Below the pieces are notes generated by a model. The model did no database searches, was not told the origin of the DNA, and saw nothing but the letters and a program-made list of their open reading frames with translations. A stretch of 64,000 bases of DNA, taken from contig OZ037838.1 in the NCBI GenBank assembly GCA_964035575.1, positions 310,001-374,000 of the forward strand, given 5' to 3'. The DNA comes from Rhynchopus sp. YZ270_cl-10 (taxonomy: Eukaryota). Position numbers and translations under genes: made by a program. Below, piece by piece: positions 1-14,125 of this stretch. Position 1 is the stretch's first letter. Each line of letters begins with the position of its first letter.

Positions 1-708
1 AGCAACACCTGTGTTCACATCCCACAGACGTACGTCCGTACCACATGTTTCGGAGGAGGTGATCACCCACCCACCACAGTCCGACACTGCCGCGTCCCTG
101 CACACCTCGTGTGAGAGAGTGCGGAGCAACGTCAGGTCTTCGTCATACACAGAGACGCCGTCTTTGCCCTTCGAGACAACAACATTGTCACACGCGAACA
201 CTTTGAACGAGGGGCCATCAATTTTGCGGACCACCTCCCCACCCGGAAGCGCAACCTCGAGAAGCCAATCCCCACACGCCAAGTAGCAGCGTGTCTTGCA
301 CTGCGAGATGGCAGGCGCAGGGACCACTTTAGTGTCCACTTCAAACGAGAAGACAGTGTCGAAGGTTTCTGTGTCGAAGCCAACAACATTCGCACCATCA
401 GCATAGACGCAGAGCGTTCCACAACGCGACAGCGACAAGCATTCTGCGCACACACTGTACTCAGCAGGACACTTGATGTCAGCAAAGCGGCGGGCAAGCA
501 CAACCTGCACCCCTGCATCAAACGCAGTGTCCTGCAGACGGCACGTCCCCTCCAGCACCTGCGTGCCGATGCGCATCTCGACAGACGCAGGCGAGACAGC
601 AAGCGCCGTGCACGCAACCTCCTTTGCCGCTGCAACGTCCGCCTCGCACGGCACCTCCACTGTCGCAGTCACGCCTGACTCTTCCAGCACAAAGGTCACA
701 TCCATCAT
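1..708 (-). CDS. Ubiquitin-like + WD40 beta-propeller protein, paralogue P1 (3' part runs off the window start)
   Basis: Manual translation from ATG 708 (MMDVTFVLEESGVTATVEVPCEAD...VRLWDVNTGVA) is open to base 1 and collinear with 13016-14125. Confidence 0.85.
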   Translation of the reverse strand, partial: MMDVTFVLEESGVTATVEVPCEADVAAAKEVACTALAVSPASVEMRIGTQVLEGTCRLQDTAFDAGVQVVLARRFADIKCPAEYSVCAECLSLSRCGTLCVYADGANVVGFDTETFDTVFSFEVDTKVVPAPAISQCKTRCYLACGDWLLEVALPGGEVVRKIDGPSFKVFACDNVVVSKGKDGVSVYDEDLTLLRTLSHEVCRDAAVSDCGGWVITSSETCGTDVRLWDVNTGVA

Positions 709-1496
709 ATTGTTAAGGGCTCTGTTGTGTTTGATGTGATGGTTGGTGGTGTCACTTCGCAACGACAAATAAGAAGGTTGGTGGGTTAAATACGTGTTTC
801 AACAAACTCTGACAAAGCGAGCAATTTGAAGATACCCTGCGGGAAACACACGGGAGTGAGGTGTGAGGTGGGCGACCTGAGACAGGCAAACAAGAAAAAA
901 GCAGCAACAGGGCTGAAAGGGGAGTTTCTTGGGGGTATTTTGAGGGTCTTGGGTTCTTTTGCTAGTACCTAGTACCCAAGCAAGCAATTTGAAGATACCC
1001 TGCGGCAAACACACAGGAGATGTGAAAAGAAACCTCATGACCTGCCCTTACTGTGGTGAGAACGGGGAAGGTACACAACCGCTCGTTGGCAGGTTTGTGT
1101 AAGCGTTTAACGGCAAACCACAAAACAACACACAAACTCTTGAAATAGTAGGATCGGGTAGGTAAGTAAAGTTGTTTTCGTTGATTGCACAATCCTCCTG
1201 TTTGAGGAGGCGCCGCAGGCGAAAAAAAATTGGGATACGGTGTAAAAATGCTTCCTTTTACACTACAGAATCACTCAACGAACCCTTTTTTGAGTAGCAA
1301 AAAATGAAAATGGCGCCGCAAGCAAATTTTTTTTAAGGTGCAGCCTGGACGGTGCATACAGGCTCGGGAAAATATTGGCTCCCTCGGGGGAGACAAAGTG
1401 ACCCCCCACTATAAAACCCCTAGGAGGATAATCCTCCACCCGAGCCCGCCAAAAAAAAAAAAAAAATGGAGGAAATCCTCCACCAAAAAAGCCTGA

Positions 1497-1609
1497 AAAA
1501 TCTTAACGTACACTCTCTGTTGATTCTAAAACGGGGGAGGGTAAAAAAGGCGTGAAAGGTAAATTGGGGAAGAGGTTGAAAAGTTGGAACGCTTCCTCAC
1601 CCCAGATCA
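1497..1609. repeat. ~110-bp dispersed repeat (near-identical copy at ~25491-25600; diverged relative at ~18644-18835 in a FCF1 intron)
   Basis: aaatcttaacgtacactctctgttgattct...ggaacgcttcctcacccc(c)agatca occurs at both sites. Confidence 0.75.
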
Positions 1610-1620
1610 CACTCCATGAT

Positions 1621-2115
1621 TCCTGACTCCTCAATCGAGCACTGCATAAGCGGGTCGGACTTCGGCAGACGCTTCAGTCCCTCAACAAGCTTGGGCAGGT
1701 CGGCGGGGGAGGAGCACTCCACAGCGACACGCACAGCGGGCGATACAGTGTACTTCATGTCCTTCAGGGGGTAGCACTCGCTCTCCTTCTCGTCGGTTGG
1801 TCGCAGTCTTCACAAATGTAACCACAGGGCACGTCCTCAACACGGCCTCCTGGTAACGCTCCATTCTGAGCAGGGTACAATCGCTGCGGCGCTGGATGTT
1901 CTTCACAGCCATGTCCTTCTTGGTTTCGGATTTGTAGTTGGGACCCCTGGTGCGTGCCTTCTGTCCGTCCTTGATCTTCCCAGAGAAAGACACGACCGAA
2001 ACGCGGTGAAATGTGTCTTGTCTGCCGCGGAAACATCTTCGACACGTACATGAATAGGGCGGAGGGTGATCAGTGCGACGGGGTCGTAGTTCTGCAGTCC
2101 CTGGAAATAGTTGAC
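1621..2115 (-). pseudogene. EEF2: Frameshifted fragment of eukaryotic elongation factor 2 (domain II-III region)
   Basis: Pieces across three frames: [119 protein letters not shown]. Confidence 0.9.
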
Positions 2116-11553: not shown

Positions 11554-11561
11554 CCTCCCCT

Positions 11562-12995
11562 TAGGGGAGTCCACGTAGTAGGAATTCCTTAAGAAACCGT
11601 GTCACAAACCCATTTTTTTGAGTTTTAGGTTAAGAAATCCACTAAAATAGCCGTATTTGGCCCCAAAACCACCTCCCGATCACAAAAATATCTCATTAAA
11701 ACCACAGACGACCTCAACAGAAGCTTTGTTCCTAAAAAAAATCGTGTTTTTTTGAAAAAAAACACGAAAAATGTGTAACAAAAATGTAACACTTATGTCA
11801 CACTTATGTCACACTTAGCAAATCACACTTTCTGGTTTCAAAGAGTACCTGTAAAGCCCAAAAACCACTCCCCTCATACTGGGGTGAGGTCCGGGGGTGG
11901 GAAAATATGCTTTTGGGGCTTTTTTGGCACCGATTTTCGGCCCCAGAAATAAAATTTTCTGGAAAAAGCATTCATTTTACCCTAAAAATACCCGTTTTTG
12001 GGGGTGTTTCCAACATACCAACCCCGAAAAAAATCACCAGAAAAGTCACTGCAGGTCAGAATTCGGCTCGGAATGGATGCGGGGACATCCAAATAGGCAG
12101 AAAACCCTACTTTTCAGTAAAAAAACCGCTTTTTTCTGGGCTATGATATGCCCCCCTCCGATGCCGCACTTATGCCGCACTTAGTGTCACACTTATGTCA
12201 CACTTATGTCACACTTAGCAAATCACACTTTCTAGTTCCACAGAGTACCTGTAAAGACCCAAAAACCATTCCCATCATATTGGGGTGAGGTCCGGGGGTG
12301 GGAAAATATAGTTTTAGGGCTTTTTTGGCACCCCCAGAAATTTTTTTTTTCAAAAAAAATACTCATTTTACCCTAAAAATACCTGTTCTTTGGGGTGTTC
12401 TTGGGATGATTACCAAATGCCGACCCCAAAAGGGCCGCCGAAAAAGTCACAGAAGGCCAGAATTCGGCTCGGAATGGATGCGGGGACACCCAAATAGGCA
12501 GAAAACCCTGCTTCCAAGTAAAAAAAACGCTTTTTTCTGGCCTATGAGATGCCCCCCTCCAATGTCACACTTATGTCACACTTCCTCCTCCCGGCTAAAA
12601 AGTGGTTTTTACGGCAAAAAAAAAAATTCAAAATTTTCAGCAAAGGCGTCCAAAAAAATAGACTTTTGGCCCCAAAACCCCCCAGAAATCGCTCTGTGGA
12701 CACATCTGAGTGGAAAAAACCTCTTTTCCTCTTGTTTTGGACTATTGAAAAAAATTGAATTTTTTGATAAATCGCCCTGTATCAAACCCCCTTAGAAAAC
12801 GGTGAAAATGGGGTGAAAACGCTACAAAAAGTGTCAAAAAAAGTTCCCAAAAGTGCCAAAAAGGCATCAAATAGTAAGGAATAGTCCCAGAAATGTGCTT
12901 TCTGGGGTGGTTTTGTGTTTTGGAATGATTTTTTTGCATTTTTTTATGATTTTTTGGGGTGTGTGACAGAAAAAACGGCTACGTGGACTCCCCTA
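11562..12995. mobile_element. Non-autonomous TIR element with 11-bp TSD (Mutator-like TSD length), containing a ~400-bp internal tandem duplication
   Basis: Perfect 17-bp TIR taggggagtccacgtag; TSD ctgcctcccct at 11551-11561 and 12996-13006; 11787-12186 duplicated from ~12187; tgtcacactta repeats. Confidence 0.88.
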
Positions 12996-13015
12996 CTGCC
13001 TCCCCTGGTCACATA

Positions 13016-14125
13016 TCACTCACTGTTGTGTGGGTACAGATGTCTTGTCCTAATCACGCCACCTCGTTGCATAGCCACAACGACACGAGAACACGGCGAT
13101 ATCGCAAAGGACACAATTGGGATTTGTATCTCATGCACACAGGACATGGTCGCCACATCATACTGGTGCAGGTAAAAACTAGAAAAGTGCTCGTCCTCAA
13201 CGCATATCCTTACCACAAGGTACTTCCCACACGGGGTGAACTGCATGCCCCCGACATCCCCACGTATAGCAACACTGCGAAGAGCCGCACCACTCCAATC
13301 ATAGAGCTGCACGGTGCTTCCCACCCCCTCTACAGCAAAGACAGAGGCATACGAAGAAAGCGCCACTGTGGCTGACCTACCCGCAGGCACACATGCCACA
13401 GCGACACCTGTGTTCACATCCCACAGACGTACGTTCATCTCACTGAGGGAGCACGTGATCACCCACCCACCACAGTCCGACACAGCCACCTCCCTGCACC
13501 CTTCATGCGAGAGAAAGCGGAGCAACGTCAGGTCTTCGTCATACACAGAGACGCCGTCTTTGCCCTGGGAGACAACAACACTACCACACGCGAACACTTT
13601 GAACGAGGTGCCGTCGACTTTGCGGACCACCTCCCCACCCGGAAGCGCAACCTTGCGTAAGTCTTGCCAACACGCCAGGTAGCAGAGTGTCTCGCACTGC
13701 GAGATGGCAGGCGGACAGTAAGCGGACACTAGAGGAGTGTCCACTACTTCAAACGAGAAGACAGTGTCGAAGGTTTCTGTGTCAAAGCCGCCAACGTCAC
13801 CACTCTCGTTCTTATGGACGCAGAGCGTTCCACAACGTGACAGCGTCATGCTTTTGGTTTCGTTCTGCAGACTGTACTCAGCAGGGCACTTGATGTCGGC
13901 AAAGCGGCGGGCAAGCACAACCTGCACCCCTGCATCAAACGCAGTGTCCTGCAGACGGCACGTCCCCTCCAGCACCTGCGTGCCGATGCGCATCTCGACA
14001 GACGCAGGCGAGACAGCAAGCGCCGTGCACGCAACCTCCTTTGCCGCTGCAACGTCCGCCTCGCACGGCACCTCCACTGTCGCAGTCACGCCTGACTCTT
14101 CCAGCACAAAGGTCACATCCATCAT
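13016..14125 (-). CDS. UBL-WD40 paralogue P4 (369 aa)
   Basis: Intact ATG-started ORF, same architecture as P3. Confidence 0.9.
   Translation of the reverse strand: MMDVTFVLEESGVTATVEVPCEADVAAAKEVACTALAVSPASVEMRIGTQVLEGTCRLQDTAFDAGVQVVLARRFADIKCPAEYSLQNETKSMTLSRCGTLCVHKNESGDVGGFDTETFDTVFSFEVVDTPLVSAYCPPAISQCETLCYLACWQDLRKVALPGGEVVRKVDGTSFKVFACGSVVVSQGKDGVSVYDEDLTLLRFLSHEGCREVAVSDCGGWVITCSLSEMNVRLWDVNTGVAVACVPAGRSATVALSSYASVFAVEGVGSTVQLYDWSGAALRSVAIRGDVGGMQFTPCGKYLVVRICVEDEHFSSFYLHQYDVATMSCVHEIQIPIVSFAISPCSRVVVAMQRGGVIRTRHLYPHNSE

What the first reader, a model, noticed from the sequence alone, without database searches (positions are those of the whole stretch)
1..14125. UBL-WD40 gene family with variation concentrated on the predicted ligand-binding face: candidate diversified receptor system
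Seen: P1-P4 (and P5 at 60449-61573) have an almost invariant ~75-aa N-terminal domain and invariant strand cores, while substitutions and in-frame indels cluster in two short patches per blade, just before strand A (e.g. YSVCAECL / YSMQNETKRM / KNLMLSSINVNL / YSVEPQAMSL before S.SRCG) and between strands B and C (e.g. ARVPDDDWNVHL / AGVSHGAGDVHL / VRICVEDEHFSSFYL / VMIEGMESDAGDRDFPNYD). Established: DA and BC loops form the top, ligand-binding face of WD40 propellers, and hypervariable top-face WD40 residues determine specificity in fungal HNWD (HET-E/HET-D) NLRs. Inference: the N-terminus is ubiquitin-like, there are seven blades, and the family is a diversifying recognition module coupled to ubiquitin-type signalling or degradation, possibly innate immunity in a protist. 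I know of no description of this architecture.
Basis: partly seen in the sequence, partly recalled or inferred. Interest (0 to 1): 0.85.

Follow-up and report, generated by a model that had tools for sequence, protein, structure and literature searches.

The report
Ubiquitin-like WD40 repertoire, hypervariable face
A single-celled eukaryote carries well over a hundred gene copies of a protein whose ubiquitin-like handle is nearly identical in all copies while one face of its predicted seven-bladed propeller differs in almost every copy, which likely makes it a home-grown library of intracellular binders, possibly for defence.

Summary
Observation confirmed and much larger than the window. Five copies lie here (P2 is split by a 28S rRNA fragment); at least 120 more-than-10%-distinct relatives, 66-75% identical, sit mostly on two contigs. 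The fold is a ubiquitin-like domain (profile matches ubiquitin gaplessly) plus a seven-blade WD40 propeller. In 123 other paralogues, 69 of 135 top-face positions are hypervariable against 1 of 146 bottom-face and 0 of 71 UBL positions; 273 of 280 gapped columns are top-face. New here: synonymous variation also falls from 41% beside the variable codons to 1% in the UBL, and the loops are shuffled between copies. So local dN/dS is about 1-1.3, not significantly above 1, but loop dN is 4 times framework dS. Best reading: gene conversion homogenises handle and frame while diversifying selection keeps the loops apart. The UBL lacks ubiquitin's L8/I44/V70 patch, so direct proteasome docking is doubtful. 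Ligands, expression and an immune role are untested. UBL+WD40 itself is known (Rsa4, Ytm1); this expanded, hypervariable form was not found in print.

The parts
1..708 (-). P1: UBL-WD40 gene, 3' third outside the window
   Evidence: full-length protein P0022
709..972 (-). 5' flank shared by P1 and P3 (264 nt, 95% identical), partly by P2 (143 nt) and P4 (64 nt), not by P5
4776..5787 (-). P2, 3' part (end of UBL and whole propeller, frame intact)
5788..6408 (+). about 620-nt fragment of eukaryotic LSU rRNA inserted in the UBL of P2, antisense to the gene
   Evidence: Rfam RF02543; junctions
6409..6518 (-). P2, 5' part (first 37 codons)
   Evidence: tblastn 97% to P1/P3/P4
9198..10289 (-). P3: intact intronless UBL-WD40 gene, 363 aa; reference for numbering (UBL 1-72, propeller 83-356)
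10074..10289 (-). UBL-coding segment of P3, 99-100% identical in DNA to P1, P4, P5
13016..14125 (-). P4: intact UBL-WD40 gene, 369 aa
   Evidence: copy-specific loops found letter for letter in sequencing runs
60105..60263 (-). 3' remnant of a sixth copy (blade 7 only)
60449..61573 (-). P5: intact UBL-WD40 gene, 374 aa, unrelated 5' flank

Best explanation
This is a lineage-specific, tandemly expanded family of ubiquitin-like-domain plus seven-blade WD40 proteins whose 14 top-face loops differ in nearly every copy, and it likely works as a repertoire of cytosolic binders in which the variable face would catch many different ligands and the constant UBL would hand them to one fixed cellular partner. 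Shown: fold of both domains, size of the family, position of the variation, mosaic loops, synonymous gradient. Inferred: frequent gene conversion or unequal crossing-over homogenises the UBL and the blade framework and swaps loops between copies, while diversifying selection on the loops (helped by the barrier that diverged loops pose to conversion) keeps them apart. Inferred, weaker: the ligands are foreign proteins (virus, bacterium, prey or symbiont) and the fixed partner belongs to the ubiquitin or AAA-ATPase machinery, bound through a non-canonical UBL surface (about 0.4).
For: Top-face restriction: 69 of 135 vs 1 of 146 positions above 2 bits; 75-125 distinct alleles per patch among 127 units. 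Within loops, conserved residues alternate with variable ones (blade 4: H203 0.6, C206 0.5, E225 0.8 bits beside M207 3.1, Y208 3.2, N223 3.5, S224 2.8), the R1-2/R1/D-1 hot-spot pattern of PMC3419727 (passages) and the DA/BC positions selected in HET-E (PMC1805685, passages). Rates: DNA identity P1 vs P3 is 99.5% in the UBL, 95% in the non-coding 5' flank, 92% in the framework, 58% at hypervariable codons; loop dN 0.67 against framework dS 0.17 and UBL dS 0.009. Four copies that share a derived C-terminal extension are 94-99% identical there but 29-55% at hypervariable sites (background 21%). Conversion: P4 and P5 have unrelated 5' flanks yet 211 of 213 identical UBL bases; synonymous variation at amino-acid-invariant columns is 7/17, 11/40, 11/64, 3/34, 1/68 with rising distance from a variable codon; patch similarity matrices are nearly uncorrelated (mean r 0.095 for neighbours, 0.03 or less at separations 2-7, null sd 0.05); first vs second half of the propeller r 0.20 against 0.43 for random halves (lowest of 20: 0.32); P0044 matches the first unit of P0121 in its 5' patches and the second unit in its 3' patches. 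Older dispersed relatives have UBLs only 27-90% identical, so the invariance is recent homogenisation. Frames stay open across all loop indels in the window copies. No signal peptide precedes the UBL (sequence).
Against: dN/dS with a local synonymous rate is not significantly above 1, and changes at variable codons fall evenly on the three codon positions (248/227/209), as a local mutator would also give. Only five DNA copies were available; the likelihood test used a star tree and ignores recombination, and pairwise counts are not independent. Low patch correlation could partly be saturation on a star-like tree. Canonical ubiquitin patch absent. Broken copies exist: P2, the remnant, and short frame-shifted products among 16 hits. 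No ligand, partner, localisation or expression data.
Confidence: 0.65

Rival explanations
1. A locally targeted mutator (error-prone repair or templated patch replacement aimed at the loop-coding DNA) generates the diversity, and selection only removes harmful changes.
For: Synonymous rate in the loops is 3 times the framework's (shared rate rejected, p 1e-6 and 3e-8); even spread over codon positions and 209 of 519 codon pairs differing at two or three bases; indels confined to the same patches.
Against: P4-specific loops are present letter for letter in 4 of 4 runs laid (13025-13155) from two studies and in 3 of 4 for 13766-13842 as far as listed, so there is no fast per-culture or somatic shuffling; no single-base bias in the substitution spectrum; loop alleles form graded series; the only reverse transcriptase seen in the window belongs to a tyrosine-recombinase retroelement; 14 separate 15-40-nt targets per gene would need a targeting rule with no precedent known to me (recalled).
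Confidence: 0.12
2. Relaxed constraint plus genomic drift: a tandem array expanded by chance, the top loops are free to drift, and conversion cleans the rest; no recognition role.
For: Local dN/dS near 1; broken copies present; other families in the window are also tandemly tripled (fatty-acid hydroxylase genes).
Against: Neutral loops under conversion should be no more diverged than neighbouring synonymous or non-coding DNA, but they are at 58% identity beside a 95% flank and a 99.5% UBL; bottom loops, equally exposed in a WD40 fold, are conserved; in ordinary WD40 proteins the top face carries the binding hot spots (PMC3419727).
Confidence: 0.13
3. The variable face targets proteins of another organism from outside (effectors of a parasite or predator) or mediates self/non-self recognition between cells of the species, rather than intracellular defence.
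For: Allorecognition is the known role of HET-E/HET-D WD40 diversity (PMC1805685); the family is held in runs filed under more than one coded organism (X1, X2, X4 under A; X3 under B).
Against: No signal peptide or membrane segment in the core protein (sequence); the diversity is between paralogues within one genome, and at least some copy-specific loops are shared between samples, unlike allelic incompatibility loci.
Confidence: 0.1

Closest known systems
Podospora anserina HNWD/NWD NLRs (HET-D, HET-E; PMC1805685, passages read)
   Same: WD40 top-face DA- and BC-loop residues diversify while recombination homogenises the rest
   Different: There the unit of concerted evolution is the single 40-aa repeat inside about 10 NACHT-containing genes, with four selected codons; here the seven blades differ from each other, the unit is the whole gene in more than 120 copies, about 70 positions and loop lengths vary, and there is no NACHT or HET domain
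Caenorhabditis F-box adaptor families (PMC8665587, passages read)
   Same: Hundreds of tandem paralogues with a conserved N-terminal adaptor domain and a diversifying C-terminal substrate-binding part; proposed to recognise foreign proteins
   Different: The adaptor here is a UBL, not an F-box; no cullin link shown; N-terminal DNA is homogenised down to synonymous sites
Rsa4/NLE1 and Ytm1/WDR12 (PMC8122580, passages read)
   Same: N-terminal ubiquitin-like domain followed by a WD40 domain; the UBL acts as a handle for one partner (the AAA-ATPase Rea1/midasin)
   Different: Conserved ribosome assembly factors, not an expanded hypervariable family; no Pfam NLE hit for this UBL
Highly repetitive WD40 proteins (PMC5587647, search listing and abstract start only)
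   Same: WD40 propellers shaped by recombination
   Different: Repeats within one protein are near-identical there (recalled); here blades within a protein are divergent

Membership tests
WD40 beta-propeller | seven four-stranded blades with velcro closure | tested here: met
   AlphaFold2 model, pLDDT mostly above 85 over residues 101-360, strand 83-85 closing blade 7; Foldseek E 5e-17 to 1e-14 to ODA16, PkwA, G-beta, WDR5
WD40 beta-propeller | WD40 sequence repeat | tested here: inconclusive
   PF00400 at E 6e-5 to 4e-3, below the curated cut-off in window copies; above it in P0125 and P0161; PkwA E 1e-8
Ubiquitin-like (beta-grasp) domain | sequence homology to ubiquitin family | tested here: met
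   10-sequence profile: all 60 listed PDB hits are ubiquitin or ubiquitin-like, gapless 8-72 to 7-71, best single-domain E 3e-4; three distant members hit PF00240, best E 2.8e-4; the window sequence alone gives no such hit
Ubiquitin-like (beta-grasp) domain | beta-grasp fold | tested here: inconclusive
   model pLDDT 49; nearly all listed Foldseek and VIA rows are ubiquitin-fold but weak (E 0.08 and above; best Z 4.5, rmsd 3.1, 56 aligned, Rad23 UBL)
Conjugatable ubiquitin-like modifier / canonical proteasome-binding UBL | C-terminal Gly-Gly and L8/I44/V70 hydrophobic patch | tested here: not met
   positions aligned to L8, I44, V70 are E (126 of 127), R (127 of 127), A (124 of 127); no Gly-Gly after the domain
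HNWD/NWD fungal NLRs | NACHT/STAND NTPase and N-terminal effector domain | tested here: not met
   core proteins are 354-400 aa with UBL + propeller only; none of the 6 longer hits showed an NTPase (4 scanned, all 6 read)
HNWD/NWD fungal NLRs | diversification of DA- and BC-loop residues of the top face | tested here: met
HNWD/NWD fungal NLRs | codon-level positive selection | tested here: inconclusive
   omega 1.13-1.33 with local dS (not significant), 2.1-3.6 with shared dS; five copies only
HNWD/NWD fungal NLRs | homogenisation of repeats within one gene | tested here: not met
   blades of one protein are divergent; exchange is between whole-gene paralogues
Rsa4/NLE1 - Ytm1/WDR12 | NLE-type UBL (PF08154) with the MIDAS-binding glutamate | tested here: inconclusive
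   no PF08154 hit; an NLE cluster at 0.83 in the Atlas is a lead only; the glutamate was not mapped
F-box / BTB cullin adaptors | F-box or BTB domain | tested here: not met
   no such Pfam hit; N-terminus is a UBL
Immune or non-self receptor | ligand binding and response to non-self | not testable with these tools
   no ligand, expression or phenotype data

The most novel reading that the evidence does not exclude
A protist innate-immune repertoire of several hundred antibody-like intracellular receptors: a constant ubiquitin-like handle and a 14-loop variable propeller face, recombined between tandem copies by gene conversion, that captures viral or bacterial proteins and delivers them to one effector machine.
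Probability: 0.35. Interest if true: 0.9.

Novelty: new variant of a known kind. Interest (0 to 1): 0.72.

Why it matters
How free-living protists recognise viruses and intracellular bacteria is largely open. A single-exon family with a constant handle and fourteen variable loops on one face is directly testable: each paralogue can be expressed and used as bait, and the invariant UBL gives one partner to find. It is also an unusually clean case of conversion-homogenised framework against selected loops, visible as a synonymous gradient at codon scale, and a warning that plain dN/dS reads about 1 in such families. The natural loop library shows where a WD40 scaffold tolerates substitution and insertion.

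Tried and rejected
Whole genome not held, so no DNA for copies outside the window. The search for related loci in metagenome contigs: 153 pattern matches, none confirmed. Window UBL alone: no ubiquitin hit in Pfam or PDB; Atlas hits under 0.9, leads only. Expression: no RNA holder listed; run X13 is only guessed to be RNA and was not shown to be transcribed; no conclusion. Summed contig depth was not used as a copy number. Holes in run coverage were not read as absence. RNA structure as the cause of UBL invariance: z -1.39, 18 of 200 shuffles as good; rejected. Antisense ORF over the UBL: open in 1569 of 2000 synonymous redraws; chance. Kinship of this UBL to the second UBL-like stretch in P0125: no alignment. 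Assembly error as the source of the loops: rejected for the P4 loops matched exactly in other runs; the best holder may be the source sample, X3 is a second study. Three hits (P0157, P0162, P0163) are repeat artefacts and were dropped; P0158 is a partial family member and was not used. The careful tree did not finish; the FastTree run shows contig labels weakly clustered but intermixed (27 changes, minimum 2, shuffled mean 35). No complex prediction was run: no candidate partner. Literature: nine searches listed no paper describing an expanded UBL-WD40 family; the Diplonema papillatum genome paper has 0 occurrences of 'WD40' or 'ubiquitin' in its main text, its supplements were not read and may bear on this.
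Full report
What is in the window. Five copies of one intronless gene lie on the minus strand: P1 (1-708, cut by the window edge), P2 (4776-6518), P3 (9198-10289), P4 (13016-14125), P5 (60449-61573), plus a blade-7 remnant at 60105-60263. 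P2 is interrupted after codon 37 by about 620 nt of LSU rRNA (5788-6408). The host is a eukaryote with GT-AG introns in a neighbouring Fcf1 gene. Features of the rRNA fragment remind me of euglenozoans, and cis-introns would then point to a diplonemid; this is recalled, not tested. No whole genome is held.

Family size. A search with P4 gave 417 proteins at E <= 0.001 among 5544 candidates; the 120 listed are, apart from P4 itself, 66-75% identical over 98-100% of the query and are separate 90% clusters; the 116 not encoded by the window all come from ENA and none is named. The other 297 were not shown, so I cannot say how many are family members. Six longer proteins carry the same N-terminus: one tandem read-through, one apparent fusion to an upstream B-box gene, four with a shared C-terminal extension. 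An exhaustive search of 1.84 billion representatives with the N-terminal 83 residues gave 27 hits; three are repeat artefacts, the rest are family members, among them nine older ones whose UBL is 27-90% identical to P3's; all nine are ENA singletons, several on contigs of the same length as close members. At this sensitivity the family looks confined to one lineage.

Fold. AlphaFold2 with 99 paralogues gives a confident seven-blade propeller with velcro closure, residues 83-356, matching ODA16, PkwA, G-beta and WDR5. The N-terminal domain modelled poorly twice, but a profile that includes the older members matches ubiquitin without gaps and lists only ubiquitin-family chains in its top 60; three older members hit Pfam ubiquitin on their own, and the weak model's structural neighbours are ubiquitin folds. 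It is an integral UBL without Gly-Gly; the residues aligned to L8, I44, V70 and K48 are E, R, A and Q in 124-127 of 127 units.

Where the variation lies. With faces defined from the model's strands, 69 of 135 top-face positions exceed 2 bits in 123 non-window units, against 1 of 146 bottom-face and 0 of 71 UBL positions; loop residues alone give 2.49 against 0.29 bits; 273 of 280 gapped columns are top-face; each of the 14 patches has 75-125 distinct alleles among 127 units, BC6 ranging from 7 to 34 residues. Structural residues inside the loops stay fixed beside the variable ones, in the hot-spot pattern described for WD40 top faces (PMC3419727, passages) and at the loops selected in HET-E (PMC1805685, passages). 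I had no coordinates, so the mapping rests on strand order.

How it evolves. Among the five window copies counting gives UBL dS 0.009 / dN 0.010, bottom face 0.11 / 0.059, top face 0.42 / 0.39; at the hypervariable codons 0.63 / 0.67. Likelihood on a star tree gives omega 1.33 (entropy-defined) and 1.13 (structure-defined), neither different from 1; forcing the framework's synonymous rate gives 3.6 and 2.1, but that constraint is itself rejected. So the plain test does not show positive selection. What the data do show is a gradient: at columns with no amino-acid change, synonymous variation is 41, 28, 17, 9 and 1% with rising distance from a variable codon. P1 and P3 are 99.5% identical in the UBL, 95% in 264 nt of 5' flank, 92% in the framework and 58% at variable codons; P4 and P5 share no 5' flank yet 211 of 213 UBL bases. 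Four copies with a derived extension are 94-99% identical there and 29-55% at variable sites. Patches assort almost independently, halves of the propeller agree less than random halves, and some copies are plain chimeras; contigs are intermixed on the tree. Neutral loops under conversion should track nearby synonymous and non-coding DNA; they exceed them severalfold. I infer conversion plus diversifying selection, as in HNWD genes but with the whole gene as the unit. A local mutator fits the even codon-position spread but is weakened by exact P4 loops in four runs from two studies. These inferences rest on five DNA copies and non-independent pairs.

How it most likely works. No signal peptide, a constant handle and a variable binding face suggest a cytosolic adaptor repertoire, the logic of nematode F-box families (PMC8665587, passages). 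In Rsa4 and Ytm1 an N-terminal UBL before a WD40 domain is the handle for one AAA-ATPase (PMC8122580, passages), which shows both that the architecture is known and how such a handle can work without the ubiquitin patch. Ligands, partner, expression and any immune role are untested; no RNA holder was listed.

Novelty. Top-face WD40 diversification, UBL+WD40 architecture and constant-adaptor/variable-binder families are each known. Their combination in a family of more than 120 stand-alone genes was not found in nine literature searches, which miss most subscription papers and supplements. Earlier notes of this scan report small tandem arrays of stand-alone WD40 genes with variable top faces in other protist genomes (unchecked), none by sequence similarity to this family. 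Verdict: real feature, new variant of a known kind, interest 0.72.

Noticed in passing
window 5788-6408: LSU rRNA fragment inserted cleanly in P2 with short sequence likeness to the gene at both junctions; a templated insertion or an assembly chimera
   Followed up: partly
window 48396-52861: Tyrosine-recombinase retroelement-like unit: RT/RNase H ORF, phage-integrase ORF with an 81-bp repeat, gag-like ORF, and a 173-bp direct repeat at 48157-48329 / 52864-53036
   Followed up: partly
window 23943-33349: Three paralogous fatty-acid hydroxylase/sterol desaturase-like genes, 89-92% identical in DNA
   Followed up: no
window 3045-4341: Tandem array of 24 copies of a 54-bp unit, 95% matches, between P1 and P2
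   Followed up: no
window 25873-28246: 340-bp perfect inverted repeats with 23-24-bp sub-repeats flanking two unannotated ORFs (26537-26989, 27028-27702): likely a DNA transposon
   Followed up: no
window 21311-22367: 250-bp inverted repeat pair, 97% identical
   Followed up: no
window 34372-37179: 935-aa ORF with hydrophobic ends and a thyroglobulin type-1 repeat; other parts look like Cu/Zn-SOD-like repeats to me (recalled, untested)
   Followed up: no
window 17655-18900: Fcf1/Utp24 gene with conventional GT-AG introns, in contrast to the intronless UBL-WD40 genes
   Followed up: partly
proteins P0122, P0123, P0124, P0126 (not in window): Subfamily with a shared 290-360-aa C-terminal extension that has no Pfam match
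   Followed up: partly
window 14204-14247: Short high-copy repeat upstream of P4, many loose ends in all runs laid
   Followed up: no
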